From a virus, in IMG/VR virus record IMGVR_UViG_3300031760_000017: a stretch of 29,896 nt of DNA; one strand, given 5' to 3'. Positions 694 through 26,335 of the stretch are shown here, one piece after another. The translations under genes were made by a program, and so were the position numbers. Numbering within the stretch: the stretch's first letter is position 1; each line of letters begins with the position of its first letter. Under the pieces are notes generated by a model. It worked only from the letters and a program-made list of their open reading frames with translations, was not told the DNA's origin and did no database searches.

Positions 694-1729
694 TAGAACT
701 TTAAGAAATAGTCTCCCTATACTGTGAAGTATAGTATAAAAAATTTTGTGAACTCTATTGCTCAGAGGTGTGTAAAGAACGTTAAGTATTTAGTAGGAAA
801 TGACTAATTAATCTTTATGCTAACAGGGGAGCCTTAGCAAGTAAAGTTGAAGGTAATCCAGTGCCAAGCCTATTATTAGGAAGGTGTAACGACTATCCGA
901 AAGGAGTAGGGCAGATGATGAGCTACTGCTCGAAGTGCAAAAATCTTTAAATATTTTCTACCACTTTGGTCAAAGTGGGATAAATTAATTAATCGAATTT
1001 TTATATATAATAGAGAGATATAGAAAGGAGATTAATAATATGTTAATCTATAAAATAACGAATTTAATAAATAATAAATGTTATATTGGTCAGACAATAA
1101 AAACTGCTGAATAGAGATGGAAAGAACATCAAAGTCATGCATTTGGCTCGCATTTAAATGATCAAAATAAAACTTTATATAAAGCAATAAGAAAATATGG
1201 TCTTGAAAATTTTACTTTTGAAGTTCTTCAAGATAATATTGAAACTTTTGAACAATTAGATAAGGCAGAAATTTATTGGATTGATTATTATAATAGTTTT
1301 GTAAAAGGATATAATGAAACTTTTGGTGGTCAACAATATCATAAAATTCTACCAAATAAAGAGATTATAGAAGATTATTACAAAACAAAAAGTGCTAGAA
1401 AAACTGCTTTAAAATTTGGAATAGATCATTCTACAGTAGATGACATTTTAAATCAAAATAATATTCCAAGATTCAGTTTTAGAGAAGCCACAGGAAAAAG
1501 AATTAAAATTTCAAAAGATGATTTTGAAAAAGATTTTAATTCAGTTAAAGATTGTGCTGAATGGTTTGTAGAAAATCAAATCTGCAAAACTAAAAATGTA
1601 GAAAGCGCAAGAGCTGGATTAAAAACTGCAAGATCATCTAAAGGAAATGGCTTATATTATGGTTATTTAATAGAAAATATTTAAAGAATAAGATATAGTC
1701 TGTGCCATTAGAAATAATGGAATTACACG
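694..1729 (+). mobile_element. Group I self-splicing intron in the DNA polymerase gene.
   Basis: The 5' exon end ggagaU (688-693) pairs with an internal guide gtctcc (711-716), including a U.G wobble at the splice site. Conserved R/S-like P7 elements gactatc (891-897) and aagatatagtct (1690-1701) are present. A P9-like hairpin ccatta..taatgg follows. The terminal omega-G at 1729 leaves the splice in frame (FWR-Y-LNKERV). An internal HEG has its own RBS. Confidence 0.8.
1040..1684 (+). CDS. GIY-YIG homing endonuclease encoded within the polymerase intron. It contains one in-frame TAG at 1112-1114.
   Basis: The N-terminus reads MLIYKITNLINNKCYIGQTIKTAE-TAG-RWKEH, the GIY..YIG...R..H motif as in I-TevI and Seg proteins. 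The RBS aaaggag lies 8 nt upstream. The C-terminal region is a basic DNA-binding tail. The TAG interrupts the motif and must be read through. Confidence 0.8.
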
Positions 1730-4356
1730 ATTTAAATAAAGAACGTGTTGAGTTAGGCGACATAGACTTAGATCTTTGCCCTTCAAAACGTCCATTAATT
1801 CTTCAAAAAATAAAAGAAGAACGTGGTCAGAATTTTAATAAAGATATTGATGATTTAAGTAGAAAAAACCTTGGTTGTACACTTATTGCGACTTTTGGTA
1901 CAGAAGGAACTAAATCAGCAGTATTAACAGCTTGCCGCGGTTACCGCTCAGAAGATTTTCCAGACGGGATTGATGTTGATACAGCTCAGTTTTTATCTTC
2001 TTTGATTCCAAGTGAAAGAGGTTTCTTATGGCCTCTTAAAGATGTCGTTTATGGAAATAAAGATAAAGATAGAAAACCAATTACGCCTTTTATTTCAGAA
2101 ATTAATTTATATCCTGGTCTATTAGATATTGCAATGGCGATTGAAGGATTGATAAATAAAAGGTCTAGTCATGCTTCTGGTGTTATTCTTTTTGATGAAG
2201 ACCCGTACGAGTTTGGATGTTTTATGAAAACTCCAAAAGGAGAAATTATAACTCAATGGGATCTTCATAAATGTGAAGCATGTGGCATGACAAAATATGA
2301 TTTCCTTGTAACAGAAGTTCAGGATAAAATTGTTCAAACAATTAAACTTCTTCAAAAAAATAATAAAATTGATAAAGACCTTTCTTTAAGAGAGGTGTAT
2401 GATAAATATCTTCATCCAGAAGTTTTACCTTTAAACGACGAAAAAATATGGAAAGCTCTTCAAAATAATAGCGTTTTAAATGTTTTCCAGTTTGATTCAG
2501 ATGTAGGATCACAAGCCGCAAAGAAAATTAAACCAACTAATATTCTTGAAATGGCGGATGCCAATGGTTTAATGCGTCTTATGACATCTGAGAAAGGCGA
2601 AGAGACGCCTATGGAAAAATATATTCGTTATAAAAATAATATCTTATTATGGTATCAAGAGATGAATCGAGCTGGATTAACAGATGAAGAGCAAAAAATT
2701 ATTGAACCATATTTCAAACAATCTTATGGAGTTCCGCCATCACAAGAGCAATTAATGAGAATGTTAATGGATAAGAATATTTGTAACTTCTCATTAAAAG
2801 AAGCTAATGCCGCACGTAAAATTGTTGGTAAAAAACAAATGGCAAAGATTCCTGAATTACATCAAAAAATCTTAGATACAGCTTCTAGTTCGTCTCTTGG
2901 TAAATATATTTGGAAATGCGGTGTTGGTCCTCAGATGGGATATTCGTTCTCTATTATTCACGCTCTTGCTTATTCTTTTATTGGAGTTCAAACAATTTAT
3001 TTAGCGACTAATTGGAATCCAATTTATTGGAATACCGCATGTCTAATTATTAATAGTGCTTCTCTTGAAGATGAAGATGACGATGAAGATGATGATGAAG
3101 ATAACACTAAAGATAAATCTACTGATTATTCTAAATTAGCAAAAGCTATTGGAGATATAACTTCAAAAGGAATTAAAGTATCATTAATTGATATTAATAA
3201 ATCTGGATATAGTTTTGAACCAGATGAAGAAAATAATGAAATTCTTTTTGGATTAAAAGGTGTTAATAAAATTGGCGGTCCAGTTATTGATAAGATTATT
3301 GGCGGTCGCCCCTACACTGGAATTATTGATTTTATGAATAGATGCCCGCTAAATAAAACTCAAATGATTTCATTAATTAAGTCAGGAGCTTTTGATAAGG
3401 TTGATAATAATTGGGCATCAGAAATCTGTAAAGAAAACCCAAGATATGCAATAATGGCGTATTATATATCAATAGCTAGTGAACCAAAGAAAAAATTAAC
3501 ATTACAAAATTTTAATGGATTATTAAAAAATAAATTAATTCCAGAAAGTTTACTTAAACAACAACAGATTTTTATATTTAATAAATTTCTTAAAGAAAAT
3601 AAAAAAGTTGGTAAATACTATGTTTTTGATGAAGGTTCTTTAAATTTTTATTCTTATTACTTTGATTTAAATGAATTAGATGTTATTAATGGAATTACTT
3701 GTATTCTTCAAAGTAGATGGGATAAAATTTATAAGAGAGAAATGGATGAAGTTAGAGGTTGGTTAAAAGAAAATCAAGAAGAGGTTTTAAATCAATATAA
3801 TAACTTATTATTTAAAGAAACTTGGAATAAATATGCAACTGGAAACGTTTCTGCTTGGGAGATGGAAAGTTTATGTTTTTATTATCATGAACATGAATTA
3901 CTTAATATTGATAATTATAAATATGGAATTGTAAACTTTTCATCTTTATCAGAAGAGCCAGTAGTTGATTATTTCTTTAAGAGAGGAGATAGAAAAATTC
4001 CAATCTTTAAATTATATAGAATTGCTGGAACAATTATTAGTAAAAATAATACTAAAGCATCTATCACCATTTTAACAACAGATGGAGTTGTAAATGTAAA
4101 ATTTACAAAAGAATATTATGCTATGTTTAATCGTCAAATTTCTGAAAAGCAACCAGATGGTACTAAAAAAGTATTAGAAAAAGGTTGGTTTTCTCGTGGT
4201 ACAAAAGTTTTAATCACAGGATTTAGACGAGAAGACACCTTTGTAGCAAAAACTTATAAAGCAACTCCTACTCATCAATTATATAGAATCATCAATGTAA
4301 ATGATAAAAAGATTACCTTAGAACATGAAAGGATAAACGCAAATGTAGAAGATTAA
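1730..4356 (+). CDS. DNA polymerase III alpha subunit, exon 2 (palm/fingers/OB region). It has an acidic low-complexity insert EDEDDDEDDDEDN at about 3058-3100.
   Basis: The ORF 1702..4356 (884 aa) has no in-frame TAG, TAA or TGA. It runs LNKERVELGDIDLDLCPSKR...GVILFDEDPY...QWDLHKCEACGMTKYDFL and has DnaE-like order. It ends with TAA. Confidence 0.85.
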
Positions 4357-4918
4357 AGTTCTTGCGCTTTTTGGAGAGTCAGGTGCTGGAAAAGATACAA
4401 TCCAGCACTGGCTCGAATGGTATTTAAAAGATACTATACATAGAATAGTATCTTATACAACAAGACCTCAACGAAGCTATGAAATTGAAGGTCGTGATTA
4501 TTATTTTATATCAAAAGATAAATTTTTTGAATAGCTCAATGATAATAAAATACTTGAATACACCTGTTTTAATGATTGGTATTATGGAACTTCCATTAAT
4601 GAATTAAAAAAAGATAAAATAAATATAGGAGTTTTTAATCCACAAGGTATTCGCAGCCTACTATCACATTCAGATACTATTGATGTGCTTCCAGTTTGGA
4701 TAAAAACAAAAAACAAATAGCGTCTCTTGCGCTCTTTAAAAAGAGAAATTTATCCAAACTGCACAGAGATTTGTCGTCGTTTTTTAGCAGACCAAAAAGA
4801 TTTTCAAGGAATTGATTTTGAATATGAATTCTTTTTAAACGACACAGATACAGATCATTATATTGGATTTCTTAATAGACCAAAAGTAGCAGTATTTTTA
4901 AAGGACAAAAATGATTAA
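4342..4918 (+). CDS. Guanylate kinase-like (d)NMP kinase. It has three in-frame TAGs, at codon 2, about 4531 and about 4720.
   Basis: It contains the P-loop LFGESGAGKDTI and the GMP-binding motif SYTTRPQRSYEIEGRDYYFISKDKFFE-TAG-LNDNKILEY...WYYGT. The start ATG overlaps the polymerase stop. The track ORF 4727..4918 is the C-terminal fragment after the last TAG. Confidence 0.75.
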
Positions 4919-4987
4919 TTTTATTAAAAGTTTTTTAAATAATAAGAGAGAAATTATATGATTTTTAGTAAAACGGGAGGTTTTTAA

Positions 4988-5215
4988 ATGATTATATTAT
5001 ATTCAACAAATTGCCCAAAATGCAATGTTTTAAAACAGAAACTACAAAATCTTAATATTGATTTTTAGATTTCTGAAGATATTAAAGAATTAATTTAGAG
5101 AGGTTTTAGAGAAGCTCCTATTTTAAAGATTGATAATTAGTATTTAAAATTTTCTGAAGCTATTCAATGGGTAAAGGAGAAAACGAAACTTGAACATAAC
5201 AATTAGACTAAATAA
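4988..5215 (+). CDS. NrdH/glutaredoxin-like redoxin. It has four in-frame TAGs.
   Basis: MIILYSTNCPKCNVLKQKL...GFREAPILKIDN matches the NrdH CxxC thioredoxin fold (compare YTRNDCVQCHATK...GFRQLPVV). The RBS gggagg lies upstream. The gene sits immediately upstream of nrdD, as in NrdH-containing operons. Confidence 0.65.
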
Positions 5216-7130
5216 AAACTTTACGACAGCTTATAATAGATTACAAGCTGAATATGGAACTTAGATTGCAAAAATAAACGGTTTTGCAGATGAGCAACTA
5301 TCTTATAATGATTTTATTAGTAATTTTATAAATGAAGATACCGTTGCGGATGCTAGTATTGATGGTAATTCAAATGTATCTCACAAAGACATTGTTACAT
5401 TACTAAATGAAATGCCTAAATCTCATAGAAAATTATTAGCTTTTAATAAAATTCATTATGAAATGCAGAAAAAATATGGTTTTAAAATAGCTAATGAGTG
5501 GTTAAAACTTGAATGGATGGGTGCATTATATATGCACGATTCTGATACATCTACTTTTAAAAGTTATTGTTTTGCTTATGATTTAAAAGATGTTGCAGAA
5601 AAAGGTTTGTTTTTCTTAGGTAAAAATTTTAATGCAAAACCGCCGCAACATTTAGGGACATTTGTTGATTTTGTAAAAGAATTTATTTCTTATAATAGTA
5701 ATAGAACATCTGGTGCAGTAGGTTTACCTAATTTAATTCCTTATATGTTTTATTTCTGGAATAAAGATATAAAAGAACACTATTGGTTAGGACCGCCAAA
5801 AAAATATGCTATTCAAAATTTTCAAAGATTTATTTATGCAGTAAATCAACCTTATGTAAGAGACGGTTCTCAATCAGCTTTTACTAATACATCAGTATTT
5901 GATCGTCCTTATTTTGAAGCTCTATTTGGAGGAAGTGTTTTCCCAGATGGAAGTTTTATGATTGATTATGAAGATGAAATTATTAATTTTCAAAAATGGT
6001 ATATGGAAACCATGTCTGCTATTCGATCTGAAAATATGATGACTTTCCCAGTAAGCACAATTTCATTGCTATATCAAGATGGTAATTTTGTAGATGAAGA
6101 TTTTGCAAAATGGGCTATTAAGCATAATATGAGATGGTCAGATAGTAATTTATTTGTAGATGATAGTGTTAATAGTTTATCTAACTGTTGTAGATTAAAA
6201 AGTAATATTGATGAACTAGGATACTTTAATTCTATTGGTGGAACCGCATTGAAAGTTGGTTCTGTAAAAGTTAATACTATAAACTTAGCTAGATTAGCTC
6301 TTGATACTGATTCGGAAGAAGAATATTTAAAAGAGTTAAAAAGAAGAACAATTATTTGCTTACAATCTTTAGATTGTGTTAGACACATTATCAAAAGAAA
6401 TGTAGAAAAAGGTTTACTTCCTAATTTTTCTTATGGATTAATAGATTTTGAACATCTTTATAATACTATTGGGTTCTTAGGCATTTATGAAACCATGAAA
6501 GCTTTTAATTATATTAAAGAAGACGAATTTGGAAATATTTTTTATACAGAAGAAGCTTCTAAATTTGGTAAAAAAATCTTTGATGTAATTCATTCAACAG
6601 CAGATGATTTTATTGAAAAAAATCATTTAGATTATAAAATAAATACAGAACAAATCCCTGGAGAAACTGCAGCTGATAAATTAATGAAAAAAGATAAATT
6701 CTTTTATCCAACTGCAACTATTTATGATTTGCCTCTTTATGGTAACCAATTTATCCCTCTTGGAATAAAAACAACATTACAAGAAAGAATTAGAATTCAA
6801 GCTTTATTTGATCATTATTGTAATGGAGGTTCAATTCTACATGCTAATATAGATGCTCCATTTGATAGTTTTGATAAAGCTTGGGATATGGTAAAATACA
6901 TAGCCGATCAAGGTGTAACGTATTTTGCTTTTAATACGAAGATTCAAGCATGTGAGGATAATCATGCTTTTTATGGGACAACATGCCCAATTTGTGGTAA
7001 ACCTATCGCAACAGAATATACAAGAATTGTTGGATTCTATACTCCAATTAGAACATGGTCTACTCATAGAAAACAAGAATATAGTATGAGGAGATGGGAG
7101 AAAATAAATGATAATAAAAGGACTAATTGA
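5190..7130 (+). CDS. nrdD: Anaerobic ribonucleoside-triphosphate reductase (class III RNR) NrdD. The likely start is TTG at 5190 after the RBS aaggag. There is one in-frame TAG at 5262.
   Basis: The track ORF 5412..7130 (572 aa, TAG-free) aligns with T4 NrdD: ...GALYMHDSD (compare GIIHVHDID), the zinc ribbon CPICG, and the glycyl-radical motif RIVGFYTP near the C-terminus. The conserved N-terminal region continues upstream of 5412 through one TAG, back to a TAA at 5172. The stop is TGA. Confidence 0.85.
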
Positions 7131-7608
7131 TGAAGATTTTATAAATTATAAAAAGCCTTCTATGACTATTGAATTTCCTTATTGCACTTTTAAATGTGAT
7201 AAAGAATGCAATCAATCTATATGTCAAAATAGTACTTTAATAAAATAGCCAGATATTGAAATAAGTTATGATGATTTATTACAAAGATATATAAATAATT
7301 CAATAACAAAAGCTATTATCTTTCAAGGATTAGAGCCTTTAGATTCTCTTTCTGATGTTATAAATTTAATAACTTTATTTCGTATTAAATATAATTGTAA
7401 AGATGATATAGTAATTTACACAGGATATAAAGAAGAAGAAAAAGAAGTTTGCTTTTTAAAAGAATTTCTTTTATCATCATATAAATAGATTAATAAAAAT
7501 ATTATAATTAAATATGGAAGATATATACCAAATCGATCTTCTCGTTTTGACTAGATACTAGGAGTAAATCTTTCATCAAATAACCAATATGCTAAAAAAA
7601 TTTGCTAA
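7108..7608 (+). CDS. nrdG: Anaerobic RNR activating protein (radical SAM) NrdG. It has three in-frame TAGs.
   Basis: The FPYCTFKCDKECNQSIC cluster corresponds to the T4 NrdG region GCLHKCEGCYN. QGLEPLD matches GGDPL, and IVIYTGYKEEE matches IWLWTGYKFED. It overlaps the nrdD stop, and the RBS gaggag lies upstream. Confidence 0.8.
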
Positions 7609-8280: not shown

Positions 8281-8526
8281 ATGTCAAAATATTTAGTAAG
8301 TACAGTAGAAACATATAGAGTCGATACAGAAGCGGAAGCAACTAAAGCAATAGAAGAAGCAAAAAGTGATAATGCGTATGTTCTTGGAAAATATACAAGC
8401 GAACATAAAACTCGTAAAGCAAAAGGCGAAATTGTTGATGAATATTGGAAGTTATCTTTAACAAAATTATTTAATGATATTAAAGAAGCTAATACTATTG
8501 TAGAAATTAATTATGAGGTAGAATAA
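8281..8526 (+). CDS. Hypothetical protein (81 aa).
   Basis: Track ORF with RBS aaaggag. Its stop overlaps the dut start (ATAATG). Confidence 0.5.
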   Translation: MSKYLVSTVETYRVDTEAEATKAIEEAKSDNAYVLGKYTSEHKTRKAKGEIVDEYWKLSLTKLFNDIKEANTIVEINYEVE

Positions 8527-8969
8527 TGACAGAAAATATAAAAGTTAAAAAACTTAATGATTTAGCTAGATTTCCAACGAGGGGTTCTTCGGCCGCGGCA
8601 GGATATGATTTATATGCGGCAACTGATGGTCCTGTTTATATTTTACCACATTCCACAATGAAAATTGGAACAGGTCTTTCTTTTGAACTTCCTGAAGGAA
8701 CATTTGCAGCAATATTTGCTAGATCAGGTATTGCCGCAAAACAAGGTCTTCGTCCCGCCAATTGCGTAGGCATATGTGACAGTGATTATCGTGGATAGTA
8801 TATTGTAGCTATTCATAATGATACAGATGAGGTCCAAACTATTGTATCTCAAGAACGAATCGCTCAAATGATTCTTCTTCCTTATATAGAAATGGATTTT
8901 TATGAAGTAGATAATTTATCTGAGACAGAGCGCGGAGAAGGCGGCTTTGGTTCAACTGGTAAAGTTTAA
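8526..8969 (+). CDS. dut: dUTP diphosphatase (trimeric dUTPase). It has one in-frame TAG at 8796-8798.
   Basis: Motifs present: ARFPTRGSSAAAGYDLYA (motifs 1 and 2), RSGIAAKQG, CDSDYRG-TAG-YIV (motif 3), ERIAQMI (motif 4) and ERGEGGFGSTGK (motif 5). The track ORF 8526..8798 stops at the TAG inside motif 3. Confidence 0.9.
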
Positions 8970-17789: not shown

Positions 17790-19133
17790 TTAACCAAGTT
17801 TCTCTTGTTCTTTAACAGCTTTCACCCATTCTGGCAGGCTGTCATTTTTATCACTATCTAATGTATATGTGATAGTTTTTTCTTCATTATTTTCTTCTTT
17901 CTCTTTTAAAGAAAAACTAACTTTTTTATCAAAACAAATAACTGAAAGTTTTGCTTTAATTTCTTCTAAAGTGTACTTCTACTTATTACTAATAACATCT
18001 GCTTTATCTTCTTCAGAAAGCATATAGAATTCAGCAATAAGTGCATCCTTTTTCTGATTATCAATTTCTCTTTTAAATTTCACGAGTTCTTGATATTGAT
18101 TTTGAAGAGTCTAATAAGAAGTTTTTAAAGCTTCAAGCTAATTTTCAATTAATTCATATTTTTTTGCTTTTTCCTTATCTTTATCATCATCTTCATCATC
18201 TTTATCTTCATCATCTGATGAATCTTCAGAAGAGTCTTCTTTATCTTCAGTTTCAGATTTGTCTTCTTTATCATCATCTTTTTTTACATAATCAGCAGGA
18301 ACAGAAGCATCTTCCATTTGATCAACCGTAGAAATTGTTGTATCAATTTCTTCTTCAACTTGAGTAAACTCAGTTACAGCAGTATCAGAAGTTTCATTCT
18401 CAACAACCACAGTTTTTTCAAGATTATCCATCTGTTGTCCTCCTCCGTCTAAGGCATTCTTTAAATCTTGCATCATACTAAAAAGTGTATGCCTAAAATT
18501 ATCGTCTAATGTAAATTTCAAACTTACATCTGGAGCCGTTACAGAAGCGCCTTCGAAGCAAGGCTCAACATCGTCTCCTAATATACAAATTTTTTGAATA
18601 ATTGCATCATTTATAATAAAGAAGTCTAATCCATTTTCATAATTTTTTTGCCAATTTCCTTTTAAGGTTTCTGGTTTAAATTCCATTGATTGCGGACGAC
18701 CTTCATTCACAGGTAAGCTGGATTCTGGAAATTGATCAGTCCAAAGATAACCTGTTGTCATAAGATATTTTCTTACAACAGTATTACCCATACCATCGCT
18801 ATCCTAAAAATCTTGAAACCAAACTTTTGCATCAGGAGATACAAAACCATAAGGAACAGTTTGACATTCGAATTTTACTCCTTCATCATCAATAATAACT
18901 TTTTCTCCATGATCTGTAAAATCTTCTTTACTATCTCTATAATAACCTACAATTGGCGCGCCTCGAAGACTTTTCCCAATTTCAACAGCAACCTATTTAG
19001 AAATAAAACTATGGTTTCTATTTGCGCCAAGATAAAATACTTTAATATCACATTTAGACATTAAAGGATTTATATCAAGAGGTTGAAGATTTAAAAATTC
19101 AGGAGAGCTTATCGTTGCAACTGATTGGTGCAT
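17790..19133 (-). CDS. Scaffolding / prohead-protease-like protein (about 447 aa) with five in-frame TAGs. It has a strongly acidic DE/S-rich linker and a coiled-coil C-terminus.
   Basis: The track ORF 18138..18791 is the middle segment. The frame continues upstream to the ATG at 19133 (RBS aaaggag) and downstream through TAGs to TAA at 17790. Its position is between portal and capsid. Confidence 0.55.
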
Positions 19134-19325
19134 AATAAAAATTCTCCTTTTTCATTTCCATATATAATAAAAATTTGAATAATTTTCTTAATAACTTTTG
19201 TCCAAAAAATTTTAATTCATACTTTCACGATTTTGAATTGTTTTTGTCGATTTCTAATCATCTGGTTTTTCAGGTCTTCCCGCACCCTATTTTGAATCTC
19301 CGCCAGTTTTATTACGATTTAAAAC

Positions 19326-20753
19326 CTATGCATTCATAGTACTAGACATTAATGGTGGAATAAAGACGTTAACTAAATCAAGAATATCATTTTCAAAATA
19401 AGCTGTTGCTAAAATAGCGCTTTGAGATTGTCCAAGAGCTATTTGTGGTAACATTTTAGAATAACCTAATTGAGTATGTTCTTTATATTGTTTAGCTAAA
19501 TCTTTATAATTATAAATAGTTGTAGGAAGAATTTGTGCCCTGTAATTAACCTTTTTTGGACTCTTATTATAAGGTATTAATAAAGTATTTAAGAAAGTTT
19601 CAAATTGTTGAATTAAGTTCCACATTGAAGCTTCATCATTTAAAATAGATTTTTCAAGAGCAATATTACCATCAGTATTAAATTGCATTTGTGAAACACC
19701 AGCTTCATTATAAACTGTACGTTCAACTTTTTCTAAATCATCTGTTGTTGTAGTGGTATGATTATCTGCCATATCCGCAACTTCAACATCAGCAAAAGTT
19801 GTTAAAACATCAATTCCAATTGCTTTAGACAACATTTGTACTGCATTATTATGAAGTTGCTGAGCTTCATCTACATCAAATACTAGATCACCATTTTTAT
19901 CAATAGGCATTTTCTGAATAATAATTTTTAATAATTGTTGTTGCATCTTGCGGCGATCAAGGTCTTGAGCTGCATCTAAATCAATTATAGCAGGGATAAC
20001 CGCCATAAATGGTGGAAAATCCTATCCATTTAAATTAAATTTTATAACAGAACCAATAGGAAGTAAATACCATCCAGACTCGTCTCCAGGAAAATCAGGT
20101 TTTAATTTTCCTTGTTTATATAGTCTATATCCTTTTTCAAACTCTTGCGGAAAAATCTTTAACATTCGAAAACGTTGCTCTGAATCTGTGAACATATCAT
20201 CAAAATATTTCATATTAAATTCAACAAGAGGCTGCCCACCTGCCGCAATATATCTGGATCTGCAATATCTTGGCGGCAACTATTGAACTATTACTGTTCC
20301 ATTCTTAGCTATTAAATAACCATAATAACAGCCATTTTTTACAACTTTTAAAGCTACATCACCAAAAAATTTTTTAGCTTCAAATTTATCTAAATAATTT
20401 AAAACTTGATTGAACCCCTCAAGAAGTTTATCTGGTTTCATAGAATCATTATAATATGGTGTTACTAACCAATCATATCTATACATATAAGCCATATAAC
20501 GACATAATCTTTGATAGATACCACTAATCTTATAAAAATAATTAGAAATATCTCTCATCTTATTTAAATCGCCATAATGAATAGCTCTTAAAACCTGCTC
20601 TTTATTTGCTAAATATGGATTAACTCTTTGTAAATCTCCTAGTTTTAAAATTGCATCAGATACAGTTTTTACTCCAACTCGAATTTTTGCAAAATCAACT
20701 GGTATATATCCAGTAGCCTAATTAGGAATTTGGTAATCTTCAGTTCCAATCAT
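19326..20753 (-). CDS. Portal protein (about 475 aa) with three in-frame TAGs.
   Basis: The track ORFs 19326..20006, 20022..20279 and 20280..20558 are collinear in one frame, separated only by TAG. Its size and position immediately after terminase fit a portal. Confidence 0.7.
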
Positions 20754-20815
20754 ATTAAAGCCTTTTTTCTTTATCTATGCCATTCGATTTATCAACTTTA
20801 GATACCTCTCCTTCT

Positions 20816-21178
20816 TTACCACCCATACGCCGCCTTAAGAATATAATCATAATTTACACGTGCCTAATCCCAATAAGGAATAATAACTAATTTAATATCA
20901 TGATCTCGACAATACTATCTTTTTCTCATATCATTATACTGTTGTTTTCTTAATCCATTATAACCACCAAATTTATCTTTAGCTTCATAATGTTGAATTC
21001 CTTGAAATTCAATTAAAAAATCAATATTATGCTAATCATCAAAAACAGCAAAATCAAATCTTAATGGACGTCCGGTATTACTTACTAAATCTGGAAAAGA
21101 GTATTCTTCTACGAACTCTAAACCAGAATCTTGTAATATTTCTTCTATTTTAATTTCTCCTCTGGATGCTCGCATATT
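20816..21178 (-). CDS. Free-standing PD-(D/E)XK (Vsr/DUF559-like) homing-endonuclease-like protein (about 120 aa) with three in-frame TAGs.
   Basis: The motif RFDFAVFDD-TAG-HNIDFLIEFQGIQHY resembles the D...(D/E)...IEYDG.QH core of the Vsr/DUF559 endonuclease family. It is inserted between the terminase and portal genes with its own RBS gaaggag. Confidence 0.55.
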
Positions 21179-21236
21179 TTTTCTCCTTCACTATATTATA
21201 TAAAAAAACCTTTTATAAAATTAATAACTTTCGACC

Positions 21237-22641
21237 TTAATTTTGTGTAAAAAATAAAAAGTCTGATATATTTCTTTTTCTTCTTTTCTTATTTAATTCT
21301 TCTTCATAACGTATATAATAAAGTCCATAAATAAAAGCAGAAAATTTATCTTTTTTAATACCTCTATTACTTTGCTTTAAAATAATATTAACGCCCTAAT
21401 TTTCTTCTACAAGATTTAACATTTGCTATTTTAAAATAGATGTTAAAATAAAAGGACGTAAATATTCATTCCTTTCATCCATATTCATATTTTGTCCTTG
21501 TTTAGTAGACATCAATTTTGTTTTTGCTAAACTTTCATCTATTAAAAATCTAATTTTGCCACTAAACATTTGGGTTTGAGCATAACTATACGCTTCTGTA
21601 TTAATTGGTGCGTTAGCTTTTATTATATATAATATATCACGCTATGTTTCTGGAGTTACAAATTTTTTATATTCTGGATATTCATCTGTATTAAAAACTC
21701 CAAAAGGTGGTAAATACTATCCATCCGCAGTTTCTTGAGCTTTTATTAAATAATCAATTAAACCAACACCTAATCCATTACCGTCAATAGCAATTCGTTT
21801 AGGTTTATACTTATAATATAAGTGTTTTATATGAATACATTGAGTCTCAAAATGCTAAGCATCATAAGTATAAATATTAACAAGAGTCTTATGAGCAGCG
21901 CCTTGCACTTGCGGCGTTACCTTAAAAACACAAATTTCAGTTGTACATCCTATACGCCCAACGTCCACTCCAAATACATAATATGCGGTTTTAGAAGATC
22001 TTCCGCTATACTCATACTATGGTTGCAATAAAACTCGATATTTATCAAACTTCTCAGAAGAAAAGAAAGCATTTTCTACATCTCCTGACCAAATACTCCG
22101 ATATTCTCTATTAAAAGACTAATCATTAAATGTTCCTTGTAATCTTAATTGTTCAACAAAATCTTCATCTAATAATCCAGAAACAACAGGAGTTTCATAA
22201 GTTCCACCCATTATCATATACTAATCTGGATCAAGAATAGAATTAATCAAGATCTATATCAGTTTGTGATATGCGAATGAATTTTTCCATCCTGCGGTGG
22301 TAATATAGATCTGTGACTTATTAACATTTTCTTCCTTGTGGCGGCTGCCATCTGAAAGACGTCTATCAACGTTAGTAGTAGGAATGATAACTTCATTTAA
22401 AATATCCCCATCAATAAGAACACACTATTCCATTAATCCACCTGTTCGACGTTGACCTCTAGAAGATTGTCTTGCCGCAAGAATATCAATAGTTGAGCCA
22501 TTCTTAAAAACGTATTTTACATTGTCTTTTGATTTTGTAGAAACACCTCTGTCCCAATTAATTTCATCATTTAAACCAGGAATAAGTCTACATATCTACT
22601 AGATTTTCGCGACTGTAATCGAGGCTGCTTGCTACTTACCA
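21237..22641 (-). CDS. Terminase large subunit, exon 2 (ATPase remainder plus nuclease domain). It has about 13 in-frame TAGs.
   Basis: It starts GK-TAG-QAASITVAKI (Walker A continuation). It includes FKNGSTIDILAARQSS (compare T4 gp17 LDNGSSIGAYASS). GGLME-TAG-CVLID may be Walker B. The nuclease motifs YYVFGVDVGRIGCTTEICVF and IAIDGNGLGVGLIDYL are present. Confidence 0.8.
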
Positions 22642-23567
22642 CCTGTGGTTACAAACAAATGTGAGTTAGGATATAAAATGCATCTTATCATTAATGCCAT
22701 CATTGACAAAAAAGACTTTGAATAAGCTACTTCTATTTAATATAATTCGTTAAATTATATTCGTATATACGCTCTATGTTCCCATAGAGATTAGACTATA
22801 TCATCATCCTTTAAACTTGGAAGTAAAGGAGCCTACCGCTTCGAGGAAACTTTTCCTCTACTCTCTTTCGAGATAGTCGTTGAACTTTTTATTTATAAGT
22901 AAAAGTTTTTCTTTCCGCTTTACCTAACGGAGTGTCTATATCTTTAGTAAGATAAGTCCAAGTTTCTCTTCTTCTTATTTTAGCTATAAAGCTTCTTACA
23001 GGAAAGCCAGTGATTTTAGAAATTTCTTTATCAGTATATTTATTACTTTTTAATAAATCTATTACCAACTTTGCATCTTTTTCAGTATAATGAGATAGAT
23101 TAGTTTTTTCTCCTTGTAAATATGAGAAATCAGTTAATCCAGTTTTTATGGCGTGGTGTATATTTTCTTGTGAAGTTACCCACTATAAATTATCTAATAC
23201 GTTATTCTCTTTATTACCATCTATATGATTTATTTGTAATTTTTCCATTCCTTCTATCGGTTTTAATAACATCATTAATAATCTATGATATTGAATAGAT
23301 GTTGTCCCCCCGCCTTTTTTCATTAAACTTACTCTCATATAACCATTATGATTTTTATTTATTTTAATATAATTTCCTGTATTGACATTACGAATTTTAC
23401 CCGTGTCATCAATAACATAACAGTCTTTAATATCAGGGTAGAGATCGCTAATTCTCTTCTCCATAAAAATCTCCTTATAAATAACTTAGCTGCTGATAAT
23501 CCGTTCTGGACTTCCCAGCAATTCAATAGGTTTCCTTTGAGAATATTACTATTCTCACCCCGCACTC
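22642..23567 (-). mobile_element. Group I intron in the terminase large subunit gene, just upstream of the Walker A lysine. The junctions are uncertain by a few tens of nt.
   Basis: Exon 1 reads ...FYQRVFLRIVMRHRYVYATFPRR and then breaks. The frame resumes about 0.9 kb downstream at (I)GK. The intron carries an HNH ORF with its own RBS. On the minus strand it has the same R/S-like elements as the polymerase intron: aacgactatc (plus 22872-22878) and gatatagtct (plus 22794-22803). A P9-like hairpin is present. A G precedes the proposed 3' splice site and a U ends exon 1. Confidence 0.7.
22889..23464 (-). CDS. HNH homing endonuclease (HNH_3 type, about 191 aa) inside the terminase intron. It has one in-frame TAG.
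   Basis: NHNGYMRVSL...QYHRLLMMLL...INHIDGNKENNVLDNL-TAG-WVTSQENIHHA matches the H-N-H motif (HxDGNxxNN...NLxW.T..EN). The RBS aaggagat is present. The track ORF 23183..23464 is the N-terminal part up to the TAG. Confidence 0.8.
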
Positions 23568-23818
23568 ATTCTACGGGGGAATGTTGCATATACGTATCTA
23601 TGTCTCATAACTATCCGCAAAAAAACTCTTTGATAAAAAAGAAATTCAAAAGTACTATCTTTACCTTTAATAAAATCAACAAAAATATCTGGATACTATC
23701 TAAAATAAGCAATAAGATCTCTTAATTGATCCATATCTTGTAAAAGTCTTTCTTCTGATATTCCTTGCTTTCGATATTCTCTTTCAGAAGTTATTTGTAG
23801 TAATTCTTTTAACTTCAT
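23568..23818 (-). CDS. Terminase large subunit, exon 1 (N-terminal about 83 aa). It has one in-frame TAG.
   Basis: The ATG overlaps the upstream TGA stop (ATGA). The sequence runs MKLKELLQITSERE...FYQRVFLRIVMRHRYVYATFPRR and leads into the Walker A motif. Confidence 0.7.
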
Positions 23819-25155
23819 GATGTTTGAACCCTCCGATTTAAATATTCTTTTTCAATATCTTCATCATTTAAACTATCATCATGAGCTTTCATATGATTTA
23901 AAGAATTTTTATAATTTACAAAATCCTCATCCTCAAGTTCAACTGTATCTAAACCTTTTGCTCTAGCATCTTTTTTATCTTTTTTCATTTCTTCTGAAAT
24001 CCGCTTATCTTGAAGATATTTTTCAATTTCTTGAGCTAGTGATTTATCTTCATAAATAAGATTTCTATTATATTCTTTTAGATCTCTAATAATCTAATCA
24101 ACTATATCTTGCGGCTAATTACATTTATATCTAGGAATTGAACCACTATGACTCTAAACAAAATCTACAATAGCAGAAGCAGAATCTATACCTATACCAT
24201 TACCATCCTTATTTTGAGCTTCTGTAAATTTTGCAGATTTCATCATAGTATCATAAACACGCGATAATTTTTGATAAGAATCAATATCTCCACTATCAAT
24301 AGCCTAATCCATCTTTAAAGAAGTCTTACAAATTTTCTTTAAAGTATCAATACGCGCCGCACCTTGAATATCAAAAGAATTCATAAATTCATTATATAAC
24401 TGCTCAAGAGCAACCCATTGACTAGGTCTATAAAGACGCCCCCACTTAATTGCAAGATACATTTTATCTTCTTGATCCAAATCCGCACCAGGATCAGTAA
24501 TTTCACTCTAAGGTATAAATAACTGTTCTTGAAATGGATTTTTTACCTGACTTAAAGCTTCAGCATAGGATTGCGGCTATCCATGAACTTCAATTTTATC
24601 TCCAACATGTATACCAGTAATATTGTTTCCCCATTGTTGAGGTAATTCTTTATTTTGAGTCTCAGTACTTACTAAAGTTTGATATTCAGATAATGAAATT
24701 TTTCCTTCACTTAATTTAACTTTAAGCTCAGCTTCATACCTAGCTTTTTCTTCCGCTTCAACCTTTTCTTTTGCGGCTCTCTCTTCATCCATCTATTTTT
24801 GAATTTTTTCAGTATCTTTATAACCATATTTATTCCACTGTTTAAGTTTCATCTTAGCAAGATACTTACCAATAACAGACATTCCATTCATTTTATAAGG
24901 ATCTTTTGCAAAAGCCTTATCTCTTAATACATTCCATTCGACAGGAATATAAGGAACATCCATTTTTTCAAGAATCCATTCAAAAGTATGAGAATCAAAA
25001 TTATCAATATGCGCGGTTATACATGCTTTACAAATTTCGCATTTGCTTCCATCTTTATAACTATAAAAATTTATTTGACCAAATTTCTTTCCGCATCTTT
25101 CACACGTACATTTGCCATTCTAATCTGGCTATTGTCCCATTATTTTCTTTGCCAT
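23815..25155 (-). CDS. Hypothetical protein (about 446 aa) with nine in-frame TAGs. It has an N-terminal CxxC...CxxC zinc ribbon (CTCERCGK...CEICKAC) and a central Glu/Lys-rich coiled coil.
   Basis: It is continuous from the ATG at 25155 (RBS ggagaa) to TGA at 23815. The track ORF 24577..24792 is an internal fragment. It is the second gene of the operon, directly upstream of terminase, so it may be a small-terminase or DNA-recognition analogue. Confidence 0.5.
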
Positions 25156-25198
25156 AAAATTCTCCTTTCTATTATTATAGAAAAAATATTATATAGAA

Positions 25199-26335
25199 TT
25201 AAGTGGTTTTGACCTGTATTTTATTTTTTTTATTTCTACAACATTTGCACATACTATATAAACCATCTTTCGCAGTTTTATTTTTTGTAAAAAAATAGGG
25301 ATGTGCAAGTTTTATTTCATGACACCTAGAGCATCTTTTCCACTTACCTTTTTCTTCAACGGTATAGTGCCAGATTATCCAATCTTCTTTTGCTCTTTCT
25401 GAAATTATTTTTGGGATTTTTTTGCGCCAAACGACAGAGAGGTATTCAATAGAATAAGTAATATTATATTTCTATTTTATTTGCGCGGAAATGTCTTTAT
25501 TTTGTAAACCATCAATTTTATATTTTACAATATCATATAAAATAGGATAATCTTCTTTTAATGATTTATCTATAAGATTATCAAAATCCTCCATTAAAAA
25601 CCACCAATCTCCATCAAAATTTCCCCAAGCCTATTCTTTGATTTTGGAATAATTACATAATAAACAACTTACATGATGAGGGTCAAATAGTGATATTAAA
25701 CAATTGCTTATCGGATTTCCGCTATCATCGACTTTTATTTTTTCACTTAAATTAATTTGATTTACATTCTTAGTTAATTTCATGGAGGTAATAGGAGGTT
25801 TAAATGAGCTTTTTAAGATATATTGATCTTGTCTCATTTCTATTAATTGTTTAGTTAATAGATATTTTTTTCTTCCAGTTGCTACCTTTTGTTGAATTTC
25901 AATTTTCTTTATTTCTTCTCTTAATTCTTTTAATCCTGGTATTGTTTCAATATCGTCTTCAGTAATCTATATTTTTGGAACTAATAGAATATTTTTATCC
26001 CCGCCAGTCATAAAATTATAAATACCATCTTCGCCATTTTCTAATTTTAAAACCAACCCCTAATAAGAAGTTTCTCTCTTATTAACAGTTACCATTCTAT
26101 TGTCTGTTAATACAGTCTTTTCTTTTTTGCTTTCAGGAGTCTCAACTAAATATCTAGTTAATTCTTCTAAATAATATGGAGTCAATTTATCTGCCGCAAC
26201 GCTATTTACAATCTCATGCACTAATCTATTTCGCTATTGTATATCTGTAATTGTATAATCTAGTTTAGCGTAAGGTCTTTTACTATTGTTGTTTTCCAAT
26301 AGAGGAGTATCTTTTATAACATCTTTTTGTTCCAT
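25199..26335 (-). CDS. Hypothetical protein (about 378 aa) with five in-frame TAGs, the first gene of the morphogenesis operon. It has a C-terminal zinc-ribbon-like DNA-binding module (CSRCHEIK...F...DGLYSMCKCC).
   Basis: The RBS aaaggag is 7 nt upstream of the ATG at 26335. The track ORF 25631..25837 is an internal fragment. The frame is continuous to TAA at 25199. Confidence 0.5.

What the first reader, a model, noticed from the sequence alone, without database searches (positions are those of the whole stretch)
1040..26335. Amber (UAG) codon is reassigned to a sense codon across this genome segment
About 90-100 in-frame TAG codons sit inside genes whose conserved motifs run straight through them. 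Examples are dUTPase motif 3 (DSDYRG-TAG-YIV), NrdG, guanylate kinase, NrdH, and terminase Walker A and nuclease motifs. Further examples are the HNH NL-TAG-W motif, GIY-YIG, and portal, which the six-frame track splits into three collinear ORFs separated only by TAG. None of about 50 genes ends with TAG. Every terminator is TAA or TGA. TGA clearly terminates nrdD and others, so this is not translation table 4. The pattern is the stop-codon recoding known from some gut phages (translation table 15-like).
Basis: partly seen in the sequence, partly recalled or inferred. Interest (0 to 1): 0.9.

Follow-up and report, generated by a model that had tools for sequence, protein, structure and literature searches.

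The report
Phage reads TAG stop as glutamate
This large gut/rumen phage uses the stop codon TAG as an ordinary codon, and homolog alignments indicate it encodes glutamate rather than the glutamine assumed for all such phages so far, so current databases truncate or probably mistranslate its proteins.

Summary
About 96 in-frame TAGs sit inside roughly 24 genes, no gene ends in TAG, and reading TAG as sense raises ORF coverage from 42% to 86%. Pfam and PHROG domains run straight through the TAGs.

At 89 TAG columns, relatives carry Glu 53% and Gln 6%. The log-likelihood is -172 for Glu and -262 for Gln, and Glu won all 2000 bootstraps. Of the strongly conserved TAG columns, 33 are Glu and 1 is Gln. 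The same test applied to Phass-1 (published as TAG->Gln) and to a related human-gut clade returns Gln, so the method discriminates.

TAG-recoded relatives carry tRNA arrays that include one tRNA(CUA). Its body resembles the co-resident tRNA-Glu genes and lacks every tRNA-Gln hallmark. The family also contains TGA->Trp and standard-code members.

Two gaps remain. The window phage's own suppressor tRNA was not reached, and no proteomic evidence is available. No report of TAG->Glu in phages was found in the searchable literature. Public collections hold this phage's dUTPase either truncated or with Gln at the TAG.

The parts
1040..1684 (+). GIY-YIG homing endonuclease ORF with 1 in-frame TAG, lying between the two DnaE pieces
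   Evidence: Pfam GIY-YIG 2-92 spans the TAG at codon 25.
4343..4918 (+). Guanylate kinase, 3 in-frame TAGs
   Evidence: Pfam Guanylate_kin 5-173 against profile 3-171/182 crosses the TAGs at codons 64 and 126.
4988..5215 (+). NrdH-like glutaredoxin ORF, 4 in-frame TAGs, ends in TAA
   Evidence: Translation and sequence. The NrdH assignment rests on motif and length only (CPKC) and was not profile-tested.
5190..7130 (+). Anaerobic ribonucleotide reductase NrdD, 1 in-frame TAG (5262-5264), ends in TGA
   Evidence: Pfam NRDD 85-635. Relatives have E in 9 of 9 at the TAG column.
7108..7608 (+). NrdG-like activase, 3 in-frame TAGs
   Evidence: Pfam Fer4_12. TAG columns are mostly E in relatives.
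8526..8969 (+). dUTPase, 1 in-frame TAG (8796-8798) directly after DSDYRG
   Evidence: Pfam dUTPase 15-145 against profile 4-129/129. Relatives have E at 83% of this column. Public copies are either truncated at 90 aa or carry Q.
9224..9781 (-). Late-module ORF (phrog_30570), 3 TAGs
9795..11018 (-). Late-module ORF of 407 aa, 9 TAGs
   Evidence: Called full-length in near-identical contigs.
12147..12971 (-). YomV-like virion protein, about 10 TAGs (N-terminus possibly over-extended)
   Evidence: phrog_4051 29-271. Precomputed Pfam YomV_2nd on the identical gene.
12874..13482 (-). YomW-like virion protein, 3 TAGs, ends in TGA
   Evidence: phrog_6123. TAG columns are 70% E.
13508..14488 (-). Late ORF of 326 aa, 5 TAGs
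14470..14799 (-). Late ORF of 109 aa, 2 TAGs
   Evidence: phrog_29637.
14799..15338 (-). Late ORF of 179 aa, 6 TAGs
   Evidence: phrog_3853 3-139. TAG columns are 58% E.
15355..15924 (-). Late ORF of 189 aa, 1 TAG
   Evidence: phrog_30998. TAG column is 78% E.
17790..19133 (-). YonD-like head-module protein, 5 TAGs
   Evidence: phrog_3313 19-434. Precomputed Pfam YonD_N.
19212..20822 (-). Portal protein, 7 TAGs (three fragments under the standard code)
   Evidence: phrog_2739 portal 73-534 against profile 49-495/501. TAG columns are 59% E.
20816..21175 (-). Small homing-endonuclease-like ORF, 3 TAGs
   Evidence: phrog_9084/559.
21237..22709 (-). Terminase large subunit, C-terminal piece, 13 TAGs (33% of inferred Glu codons)
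   Evidence: phrog_15503, 24618 and 5909. TAG columns are 62% E, 24% TAG and 2% Q in relatives.
22889..23464 (-). HNH endonuclease ORF inside the terminase gap, 1 TAG within the NL-x-W motif
   Evidence: Pfam HNH_3 74-101 and NUMOD4. TAG column is E in 9 of 10.
23555..23818 (-). Terminase N-terminal ORF (ends ...YVYATFPR), 1 TAG
   Evidence: Translation. Called as an 87-aa gene in the near-identical contig.
23815..25155 (-). YonG-like protein, 9 TAGs, ends in TGA
   Evidence: phrog_3314. Precomputed Pfam YonG_N.
25199..26335 (-). Sigma-factor-like protein (phrog_5767), 5 TAGs
26673..27101 (+). phrog_289-like ORF, 1 TAG. Its single TAG column is Q in relatives, an exception to the Glu pattern.
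3..704 (+). DnaE-type DNA polymerase III alpha, upstream piece, TAG-free
   Evidence: Pfam DNA_pol3_alpha profile 19-92. 0 TAG against 21 GAA/GAG.
1702..4356 (+). DnaE, downstream piece, TAG-free (0 TAG against 65 GAA/GAG)
   Evidence: Pfam DNA_pol3_alpha profile 94-259, finger and HHH_6 domains. Counts.
11099..12091 (-). Tail tube protein (YomU-like), TAG-free
   Evidence: phrog_2729. Precomputed Pfam YomU_Tube. Counts.
16112..17209 (-). Major capsid protein (YonB-like), TAG-free
   Evidence: phrog_4088. Precomputed Pfam YonB. Counts.
17227..17775 (-). Head-module protein of 182 aa, TAG-free
27098..29209 (+). Block of small plus-strand ORFs (presumed early genes), TAG-free, ending in TAA or TGA
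   Evidence: The block continues for about 20 kb in the near-identical contig.

Best explanation
The window comes from a phage of roughly 130-145 kb with an SPbeta-like virion module, from a ruminant or herbivore gut. It is a distant relative of Phass-1 and of Enterococcus phage EF1. In this phage UAG is a sense codon, and the evolutionary evidence says it stands for glutamate.

The most likely mechanism is as follows. The phage carries, elsewhere in its genome, a tRNA array that includes a tRNA-Glu-derived suppressor with a CUA anticodon. A host glutamyl-tRNA synthetase charges that tRNA with Glu. The CUA anticodon keeps U35, and a non-discriminating GluRS already tolerates variation at position 36. 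The charged tRNA is not converted to Gln, because it lacks the U1-A72 pair and has the enlarged D-loop that distinguish tRNA-Gln from tRNA-Glu for the GatCAB amidotransferase.

Genes needed before, or independently of, the suppressor avoid TAG: the small early ORFs, DnaE, and the sigma factor next to the tRNA array. So do the proteins needed in the highest copy number (capsid and tube). Most other late genes use TAG for 10-36% of their Glu positions, and some nucleotide-metabolism genes for up to 23%.

What is shown: TAG is sense; it aligns with Glu; relatives carry a Glu-like tRNA(CUA); and sister clades use TAG->Gln, TGA->Trp or the standard code.

What is inferred: that this phage itself carries the suppressor gene; which enzyme charges the tRNA; that GatCAB does not act on it; and the temporal and expression-level logic behind TAG avoidance.
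For: TAG is sense. ORF coverage rises from 42% to 86%. Domains span the TAGs. No gene ends in TAG. Full-length gene calls exist in near-identical contigs.

TAG stands for Glu. There are 89 TAG columns with at least 3 relatives each. Column-weighted residues in relatives are E 53%, K 7%, Q 6% and D 6%. True-E columns give E 62%, while true-Q columns give Q 56% and E 7%. Log-likelihoods are E -171.9, D -257.5 and Q -262.3. E won 2000 of 2000 bootstraps, and the 95% interval for the E-minus-Q log-likelihood difference is 72-108. Among conserved columns, 33 are E and 1 is Q. Using standard-code relatives alone gives E 50% and Q 7%. In the reciprocal test, relatives' in-frame TAGs lie opposite window E 895 times, TAG 566, D 195 and Q 174. 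The commonest codons at TAG columns are GAA 1400, TAG 566, GAG 383 and CAA 131.

Controls. The same pipeline returns Gln for Phass-1, which is published as code 15. It also returns Gln for the human-gut clade L477, L488 and L502.

Suppressor tRNA. Arrays of up to 27 tRNAs, each with one tRNA(CUA), occur in TAG-recoded relatives. Six genomes that carry the suppressor (L441, L434, L448, L451, L436, L433) each score Glu at their own TAG columns, as do two loci of the 132.7-kb relative, L417 and L307. The isotype classifier has 89% leave-one-out accuracy, with Glu 16/17 and Gln 39/40 correct. It puts Glu first for 5 of 11 distinct suppressors and in the top three for 10 of 11, and never puts Gln in the top four. 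The structural table shows G1-C72 or C1-G72, G2.U71, mostly A73, and a 3-bp D-stem with an 11-nt D-loop. The D-loop AAGCGGTTTAA and the variable loop AGAC are identical to those of co-resident tRNA-Glu genes. Every parsed tRNA-Gln has G73, and all but three have a U1-A72 or A1-U72 pair.

TAG avoidance. DnaE has 0 TAG against 86 GAA/GAG. Capsid, tube and the 182-aa protein together have 0 against 56. The overall TAG share of inferred Glu codons is 12.7%. My own arithmetic gives binomial probabilities of about 1e-5 and 5e-4 for these two absences.
Against: No tRNA(CUA) was seen in the window or in the roughly 20 kb of near-identical genome to its right. That region holds only a tRNA-Lys(UUU). 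The suppressor is therefore inferred from relatives at about 60-90% protein identity.

The classifier is not unanimous: Asp, Met or Cys score first for 6 of 11 suppressors.

About 47 of 81 well-sampled TAG columns are variable, and one conserved column is Q. The single TAG in 26673-27101 aligns with Q.

Alignment evidence shows which residue is tolerated or ancestral at a site. It does not show which residue is actually inserted. A mixture of Glu and Gln, or competition from termination, cannot be excluded.

The host, and therefore its GluRS, GlnRS and GatCAB complement, is unknown, because MAG binning of these contigs is taxonomically inconsistent. No release-factor or synthetase gene was found in the regions inspected by eye, and those regions were not systematically profile-searched.
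Confidence: 0.8

Rival explanations
1. This is ordinary genetic code 15. TAG is read as glutamine by a Gln-type suppressor, as in crAss-like phages, Lak phages and Phass-1. The excess of Glu at aligned columns would then reflect only where TAGs happened to arise, through GAG->TAG mutations at sites that tolerate Gln.
For: All published phage TAG reassignments found in the library are Gln. The distant relative Phass-1 and a human-gut sister clade do score as Gln. Glu and Gln are chemically similar, and both GAG and CAG lie one mutation from TAG. A few columns are Q.
Against: TAG columns behave quantitatively like true Glu columns (53% E against 62%) and unlike true Gln columns (7% E). The log-likelihood difference is about 90, and E won every bootstrap. 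Among conserved columns, 33 are E and 1 is Q. These include sites such as NrdD codon 25 (E in 9 of 9) and the dUTPase motif (E in 83%). The suppressors in relatives lack every tRNA-Gln hallmark seen in 44 co-resident tRNA-Gln genes. The same method recovers Gln where Gln is expected.
Confidence: 0.06
2. Decoding of TAG is ambiguous or only partly efficient. The suppressor inserts a mixture (Glu with some Gln or Lys) and competes with host RF1, so each TAG lowers the yield. TAG would then act mainly as a translational throttle or timing device rather than as a clean 21st sense codon.
For: TAG is completely avoided in the highest-copy virion proteins and in DnaE, but is frequent in low-copy late proteins such as TerL and portal, and in the 2,861-aa tape-measure-like ORF of a relative, which has 45 TAGs. 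No release-factor gene was seen. From memory, engineered tRNA-Glu amber suppressors in E. coli insert mostly Glu with some Gln (Normanly, Kleina and co-workers, 1990); this was not verified here.
Against: Thirteen TAGs in TerL and 45 in a tape-measure protein would be prohibitive unless suppression were efficient. The column statistics fit a single amino acid (Glu) about as well as true Glu codons do. This rival refines the best explanation rather than replacing it.
Confidence: 0.1
3. The TAG-interrupted genes are pseudogenes in a decaying or defective element, or the TAGs are sequencing or assembly artefacts.
For: Under the standard code more than half of the genes are broken.
Against: Only TAG interrupts the frames. 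No frameshifts and no in-frame TAA or TGA are needed to restore full-length, profile-matching proteins. The same TAGs occur in independent assemblies from several samples. TAG positions are partly shared with relatives: 566 TAG-on-TAG alignments. Dozens of contigs of 100-146 kb show the same pattern.
Confidence: 0.01
4. TAG encodes some other residue: Asp, pyrrolysine, or a non-canonical or modified amino acid with Glu-like properties.
For: ARAGORN labels any CUA tRNA 'Pyl'. Asp is the second-best amino acid by likelihood, and Asp profiles score highest for 2 of 11 suppressors.
Against: Asp is about 86 log-likelihood units worse than Glu. The CUA tRNAs are ordinary cloverleaves with Glu-type D-arms and do not have the compact tRNA-Pyl architecture. 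No pyl genes were noticed in the regions read, though these were not systematically searched.
Confidence: 0.03

Closest known systems
Genetic code 15 phages (TAG->Gln): crAss-like, Lak and Garnet/Topaz phages, and the Phassvirus group (Phass-1, OQ749652)
   Same: TAG occurs in-frame in conserved genes, mostly late ones, and is never used as a terminator. TAA and TGA terminate. A tRNA(CUA) is encoded in a phage tRNA array, and some genes are kept TAG-free. Phass-1 is a true, though distant, relative (capsid protein 52% identical, partly syntenic).
   Different: The amino acid inferred at TAG is Glu rather than Gln (against 43). The suppressor has a tRNA-Glu-like body rather than the Gln-like features of U1/A1 with a weak 1:72 pair and G73. 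Borges et al. state that only TAG->Gln and TGA->Trp are seen in phages whose code differs from the host's.
Code 4 phages (TGA->Trp), such as the Agate, Jade and Sapphire clades
   Same: The same phenomenon of phage stop-codon recoding. Members of this very family use it: L036-L038, L041, L044-L050 and others gain coverage only when TGA is sense, and their in-frame TGAs lie opposite window Trp in 41 of 58 cases.
   Different: A different codon and a different amino acid. In the window itself, TGA is a genuine terminator.
Peritrich ciliate nuclear code (NCBI table 30: TAA and TAG -> Glu)
   Same: From my own knowledge, this is the only established code in which UAG means glutamate.
   Different: It is a eukaryotic nuclear genome in which TAA is reassigned as well, and it has no relation to phage-host code conflict. 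No comparison was run here.
Engineered E. coli tRNA-Glu(CUA) amber suppressors (Normanly, Kleina, Abelson, Miller, 1990)
   Same: They show that a tRNA-Glu body with a CUA anticodon can still be charged, largely with Glu, by a bacterial GluRS. This is from memory and was not checked here.
   Different: Those are laboratory constructs. Here the arrangement appears to be natural and fixed across a phage clade.
Bacillus phage SPbeta and Enterococcus phages EF1/EF5
   Same: The virion module matches Pfam families named after SPbeta proteins (YonB, YonD, YonG, YomU, YomV, YomW). Both have a DnaE-type polymerase and a genome of about 130-145 kb.
   Different: No stop-codon recoding was found in EF1 (Babkin et al., PMC10607447), and none is known to me for SPbeta or EF5. 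Capsid identity to EF1 is only 34%.

Membership tests
Phage stop-codon recoding (alternatively coded phages in the sense of Ivanova 2014, Yutin 2021 and Borges 2022) | One stop codon occurs repeatedly in-frame inside conserved genes, and reading it as sense restores full-length proteins and coding density | tested here: met
   Coverage rises from 42% to 86% for TAG but only to 47% for TGA. Pfam and PHROG matches span the TAGs.
Phage stop-codon recoding | The recoded codon is not used as a terminator | tested here: met
   None of 34 curated ORFs given in their correct frame ends in TAG: 27 end in TAA and 7 in TGA. NrdH and the TerL N-terminal ORF also end in TAA or TGA.
Phage stop-codon recoding | A phage-encoded suppressor tRNA has the matching anticodon (reported in only about 35-40% of published cases) | tested here: inconclusive
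   There is none in the window or in about 20 kb of near-identical flank. It is present in 14 loci of TAG-recoded relatives (11 distinct sequences).
Phage stop-codon recoding | A subset of genes, early or regulatory, is kept free of the recoded codon | tested here: met
   DnaE, the small plus-strand ORFs, capsid and tube proteins have 0 TAG. In relatives, the sigma factor and the 508-aa protein next to the tRNA array have 0 TAG.
Phage stop-codon recoding | The host uses the standard code | not testable with these tools
   The host is unknown. The contigs are binned into taxonomically inconsistent MAGs.
NCBI translation table 15 (TAG -> Gln) | TAG aligns with glutamine in homologs | tested here: not met
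   E 53% against Q 6%. Log-likelihood E -171.9 against Q -262.3. Conserved columns are 33 E and 1 Q. Positive controls give Q.
NCBI translation table 15 (TAG -> Gln) | The suppressor tRNA has glutamine identity | tested here: not met
   The relatives' tRNA(CUA) lack U1-A72 or A1-U72 together with G73, and never score Gln-like. This was tested on relatives, not on the window phage itself.
UAG -> Glu code (proposed here) | TAG columns are statistically indistinguishable from Glu columns and distinct from those of all other residues | tested here: met
UAG -> Glu code (proposed here) | A tRNA(CUA) with tRNA-Glu architecture | tested here: met
   Its D-arm, variable loop and acceptor features are shared with co-resident tRNA-Glu genes. 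Glu is in the classifier's top three for 10 of 11. This holds in relatives only.
UAG -> Glu code (proposed here) | Glu is physically incorporated at UAG | not testable with these tools
   This needs proteomics or aminoacylation assays.
Pyrrolysine decoding of UAG | tRNA-Pyl architecture and pylBCD/pylS genes | tested here: not met
   The CUA tRNAs are standard cloverleaves with Glu-type D-arms. No pyl genes were noticed, and the ARAGORN label 'Pyl' is based on the anticodon alone.

The most novel reading that the evidence does not exclude
A natural UAG->glutamate genetic code exists in a clade of roughly 130-145 kb herbivore-gut phages. It is implemented by a tRNA-Glu-derived CUA suppressor. 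The clade sits next to sister clades of the same phage family that use UAG->Gln, UGA->Trp or the standard code. On this reading, the meaning of a reassigned stop codon in phages is set by the identity of the captured tRNA and is not restricted to Gln and Trp, and table-15 gene callers systematically mistranslate these phages.
Probability: 0.78. Interest if true: 0.85.

Novelty: new variant of a known kind. Interest (0 to 1): 0.8.

Why it matters
First, it would add a new natural genetic code to bacteria and phages. The survey by Borges et al. reports only TAG->Gln and TGA->Trp in phages whose code differs from their host's. It explains this by the susceptibility of GlnRS and TrpRS to charging suppressors. 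A Glu reassignment breaks that rule and points to GluRS, possibly the non-discriminating type found in hosts without GlnRS, as a third entry point.

Second, a single phage family now offers closely related genomes with UAG=Glu, UAG=Gln, UGA=Trp and the standard code. That is a natural experiment for how codes switch.

Third, there is a practical consequence. Current pipelines either truncate these proteins or translate TAG as Gln. The public collection holds this phage's dUTPase only in those two forms. About 1% of all residues, and up to a third of the Glu positions in some proteins, are therefore probably wrong. This affects structure prediction, profile building and metaproteomic peptide matching.

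Fourth, a natural, efficient tRNA-Glu-like amber suppressor may be of interest for genetic-code engineering.

Tried and rejected
- Searching for the suppressor tRNA near the window. ARAGORN found nothing in the window, in 4 near-identical loci, or in about 250 loci anchored on DnaE, the capsid gene, the helicase-side ORFs, the tape-measure gene and tail genes. The single metagenome scan then recovered many arrays.
- Extending the near-identical genome rightwards. This found only small ORFs and a conserved tRNA-Lys(UUU). The window phage's own array was not reached.
- Treating the tRNA-Lys(UUU) as a possible suppressor. It is a canonical Lys tRNA, and Lys fits the TAG columns poorly (log-likelihood -272).
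- Looking for a tRNA in the gap upstream of nrdD, where Phass-1 has two Sup-CTA genes. That gap is an NrdH-like ORF.
- A first tRNA comparison by crude pairwise identity, which was uninformative. It was replaced by a validated column-profile classifier and a structural table.
- PDB dUTPase alignments. The residue after DxDYRG is E, N or P in distant homologs, which is compatible with E but not decisive.
- Host identification through GTDB genomes. The hits are phage-sized contigs binned into Methanobrevibacter, Lachnospiraceae, Endomicrobiaceae, Bacilli, Succinatimonas and others, so they carry no host information.
- A whole-window Rfam search, which found no tRNA and no intron at E<=1.
- The pseudogene reading and the table-4 reading were both rejected.

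Full report
**1. The observation**

The window is 29,896 bases at 30% G+C. Under the standard code, ORFs of at least 100 aa cover only 42% of it. With TAG read as sense they cover 86%, in 31 ORFs with a mean length of 278 aa. With TGA read as sense, coverage is 47%.

In 35 curated ORFs there are 92 in-frame TAGs, compared with 94 GAG and 539 GAA. An NrdH-like ORF at 4988-5215 adds four, and the terminase N-terminal ORF adds one. No ORF ends in TAG: 27 end in TAA and 7 in TGA among the 34 ORFs given in their correct frame, and NrdH and the TerL N-terminal ORF also end in TAA or TGA. NrdD ends in TGA.

Profile matches run through the TAGs:
- Guanylate_kin covers residues 5-173 of 191.
- dUTPase covers 15-145 of 147.
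- GIY-YIG and HNH_3 also match across their TAGs.
- Portal covers 73-534 against profile positions 49-495 of 501.
- Several virion-protein PHROGs match nearly end to end.

Independent assemblies from ENA, JGI and Logan samples carry identical genes, and these were already called full-length by a recoding-aware gene caller. Pseudogenes and artefacts are excluded, because only TAG interrupts the frames and no frameshifts are needed.

**2. What the element is**

Precomputed Pfam hits on the identical genes (YonB, YonD_N, YonG_N, YomU_Tube, YomV_2nd, YomW) point to an SPbeta-like virion module, and the phage also has a DnaE-type polymerase.

The closest annotated genomes are:
- Phage Phass-1, with capsid protein 52% identical. 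It is a 136-kb human-gut phage published as code 15.
- The standard-code Enterococcus phages EF1 and EF5, at 34%.

IMG/VR and metagenome collections hold a large family of contigs of 100-146 kb, mostly from rumen and other herbivore-gut samples. Copies in GTDB MAGs are phage-sized contigs binned into unrelated taxa, so the host is unknown.

**3. Which amino acid TAG encodes**

I aligned every window protein, with TAG written as X, against 153 related loci by tblastn. I then recorded what the relatives carry at the TAG columns.

Raw codons at those columns are GAA 1400, TAG 566, GAG 383, GAT 205, AAA 137 and CAA 131.

E and K are common in AT-rich genomes. To correct for that, I built an empirical substitution table from the non-TAG columns of the same alignments.

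| Column type in the window | What relatives carry |
|---|---|
| True E | E 62% |
| True Q | Q 56%, E 7% |
| TAG (89 columns) | E 53%, K 7%, Q 6%, D 6% |

The log-likelihoods are E -171.9, D -257.5, Q -262.3 and K -271.8.

- Bootstrapping the columns gives E in 2000 of 2000 replicates. The 95% interval for the E-minus-Q difference is 72-108.
- Among TAG columns with at least 8 relatives and at least 70% of one residue, 33 are E and 1 is Q.
- Standard-code relatives alone give E 50% and Q 7%.
- In the reciprocal direction, relatives' in-frame TAGs lie opposite window E 895 times, TAG 566, D 195 and Q 174. E makes up 7.3% of the background.

Individual examples: the NrdD column is E in 9 of 9, dUTPase is E at 83%, HNH is E in 9 of 10, and TerL is E 62% against Q 2%.

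**4. Controls**

The same pipeline applied to Phass-1 returns Gln as the best residue (Q -204.4, K -220.7, E -222.5). That agrees with its published annotation (PMC10607447).

Applied genome by genome:
- A related human-gut clade (L477, L488, L502) also returns Gln.
- Eight loci of the rumen clade return Glu. L509, with only 12 TAG columns, is ambiguous.

So the method discriminates, and sister clades of one family read TAG differently. A third group of relatives gains coverage only with TGA as sense. Its in-frame TGAs lie opposite window Trp in 41 of 58 cases. Other relatives use the standard code.

**5. The suppressor tRNA**

The window has no tRNA. I walked outward on relatives and on a near-identical contig.

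The roughly 20 kb to the right of the window consists of small plus-strand ORFs with a single canonical tRNA-Lys(UUU).

To the left, in order, lie:
- the rest of the replication module;
- a 2,861-aa tape-measure-like ORF with 45 TAGs;
- tail genes;
- a tRNA array, at about 116 kb on a 132.7-kb relative.

A metagenome scan anchored beside the array recovered many copies. TAG-recoded members carry up to 27 tRNAs, including one with a CUA anticodon. There are 14 loci and 11 distinct sequences.

A column-profile isotype classifier was trained on 320 class-I tRNAs from these arrays. Its leave-one-out accuracy is 89%, with Glu 16 of 17 and Gln 39 of 40 correct. It ranks Glu first for 5 of 11 suppressors and in the top three for 10 of 11. 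Gln never reaches the top four.

The structural parse is clearer:

| Feature | tRNA-Gln (44 parsed) | Suppressors |
|---|---|---|
| 1:72 pair | U1-A72 or A1-U72 (three have G1.U72) | G1-C72, C1-G72 or G1.U72 |
| 2:71 pair | Watson-Crick | usually G2.U71 |
| Position 73 | always G | mostly A |
| D-arm | 3-bp stem, mostly 9-nt loop | 3-bp stem with 11-nt loop, or GTCT...GGAC, as in co-resident tRNA-Glu |

The D-loop AAGCGGTTTAA and the variable loop AGAC are identical between a suppressor and a tRNA-Glu. The genomes that carry these suppressors score Glu at their own TAG columns.

**6. Mechanism (inferred)**

A tRNA-Glu body with a CUA anticodon retains U35, which GluRS, GlnRS and LysRS all read. 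This is established tRNA-identity knowledge, stated from memory.

A GluRS, and especially a non-discriminating one that already accepts both C36 and G36, could plausibly charge it. The absence of U1-A72, together with the enlarged D-loop, should keep GatCAB from converting Glu to Gln.

TAG is absent from DnaE (0 against 86 GAA/GAG) and from capsid, tube and the 182-aa head protein (0 against 56). It is also absent from the early small ORFs, and in relatives from the sigma factor and the 508-aa protein beside the array. By contrast it supplies 10-36% of inferred Glu codons in most other late genes. This fits two ideas:
- a timing model, in which the suppressor must be made first;
- a cost per TAG that the highest-copy proteins avoid.

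No synthetase or release-factor gene was noticed, but the search for them was not systematic.

**7. Comparison with what is known**

Stop-codon recoding in phages is well described. In the searchable literature every TAG case is assigned to Gln. Borges et al. state that only TAG->Gln and TGA->Trp are seen in phages whose code differs from their host's. I found no report of TAG->Glu in phages or bacteria. From memory, the only established UAG=Glu code is the peritrich ciliate nuclear code.

The finding is therefore a new variant of a known kind. It fails the defining test for table 15, which is Gln at TAG, but it works like the known recoded phages.

Public data already reflect the problem. The window's dUTPase exists in the collection with Q at the TAG, and as 90-aa truncations. 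The E version is absent.

**8. Limits**

- The suppressor was seen only in relatives, not in the window phage itself.
- Alignment statistics show which residue fits a site. They do not show which residue is inserted.
- Mixed decoding, or competition with RF1, is not excluded.
- The host is unknown.
- One TAG (in 26673-27101) and one conserved column look like Q.

Noticed in passing
window 705-1701 (between DnaE pieces 3-704 and 1702-4356): The DnaE polymerase gene is split by about 1 kb that holds a GIY-YIG endonuclease ORF (1040-1684). Two collinear sub-threshold Rfam group I intron matches flank the ORF: 762-909 (18.3 bits) and 1690-1719 (16 bits, matching the 3' end of the model). This is probably a group I intron with a homing endonuclease, and the endonuclease ORF itself contains a TAG.
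   Followed up: partly
window 22710-23572, minus strand (between TerL pieces 21237-22709 and 23555-23818): The terminase large subunit is also split. The N-terminal ORF ends ...YVYATFPR, and the Walker-A-like continuation YSKSFL resumes at about 22735. An HNH/NUMOD4 endonuclease ORF lies between them. The non-coding part shares a motif (AACGACTATC..GAAAG..AGTAG) with the DnaE gap. Stretches of 34-58 nt from both gaps match crAss-like and Klebsiella phages at 88-100% identity.
   Followed up: partly
relatives: L036-L038, L041, L044-L050, L064, L071 (TGA class); L477, L488, L502 (TAG->Gln class); L043, L049, L054, L081 and others (standard code): The same phage family contains TGA->Trp members, TAG->Gln members and standard-code members alongside the TAG->Glu clade. 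That implies several independent code switches among fairly close relatives.
   Followed up: partly
L417:50-135 (IMGVR_UViG_3300037400_003961, about 116.9 kb): The array holds an 86-nt tRNA with an 8-bp acceptor stem, a long variable arm and a UUU anticodon. It resembles the '8/4 allo-tRNAs' of Mukai et al. (PMC5389517). If SerRS charged it, it would misread Lys codons.
   Followed up: no
L469, L470, L477, L480, L487-L489, L492, L494, L502 (human-gut TAG->Gln clade): ARAGORN reports tRNAs with an 8-nt anticodon loop, shown as '(taaa)', conserved across this clade. No CUA tRNA was seen in the 10 kb sampled there. Their function is unknown; a UAA/UAG-related or frameshift suppressor is one possibility.
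   Followed up: no
L308:12834-12909 (near-identical genome, about 11.5 kb right of the window end); also in L310, L312, L313, L511: A lone canonical tRNA-Lys(UUU) sits in a GC-rich island (about 50% G+C against 30% for the genome). It is followed by two strong terminator hairpins, lies far from the main tRNA array, and is conserved across relatives.
   Followed up: partly
window 29694-29784; L308 1144-1524 and 4484-6094: Long near-perfect hairpins recur in the intergenic spaces of the early small-ORF region. Rfam picks them up as spurious miRNA-precursor matches. They may be repeated regulatory or terminator elements.
   Followed up: no
window 21237-22709 (TerL), PHROG families 15503 and 24618: The two halves of TerL match two different PHROG families of 'unknown function', each nearly end to end. 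These PHROGs were probably built from TAG-truncated fragments of recoded phages.
   Followed up: no
L225-L235 (GTDB genome contigs): Phage-sized contigs of this family (up to 139.6 kb) are included in MAGs labelled Methanobrevibacter, Endomicrobiaceae, Succinatimonas, Lachnospiraceae, Bacilli and others. This is likely binning contamination of public MAGs.
   Followed up: no
L307:741-9326 (minus strand) on the 132.7-kb relative: A 2,861-aa tape-measure-like ORF carries 45 in-frame TAGs. It lies about 40 kb from the head and tube module, with the whole replication module inserted between them on the opposite strand.
   Followed up: no
L018:922-3094 and L236:6477-8925: Further split genes occur in relatives. 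A DnaB-like helicase ORF is followed by a LAGLIDADG endonuclease ORF with 7 TAGs. A GyrB/topoisomerase-like ORF is followed by a GIY-YIG ORF. The family seems rich in homing-endonuclease insertions that are themselves adapted to the recoded code. These assignments were made by eye from motifs and were not profile-tested.
   Followed up: no
window 12874-12971: The TAG-sense ORFs 12147-12971 and 12874-13482 overlap by about 100 nt. The near-identical contig's gene call starts the downstream gene later (256 aa), so the N-terminal extension, and perhaps one of its TAGs, may not be coding.
   Followed up: no
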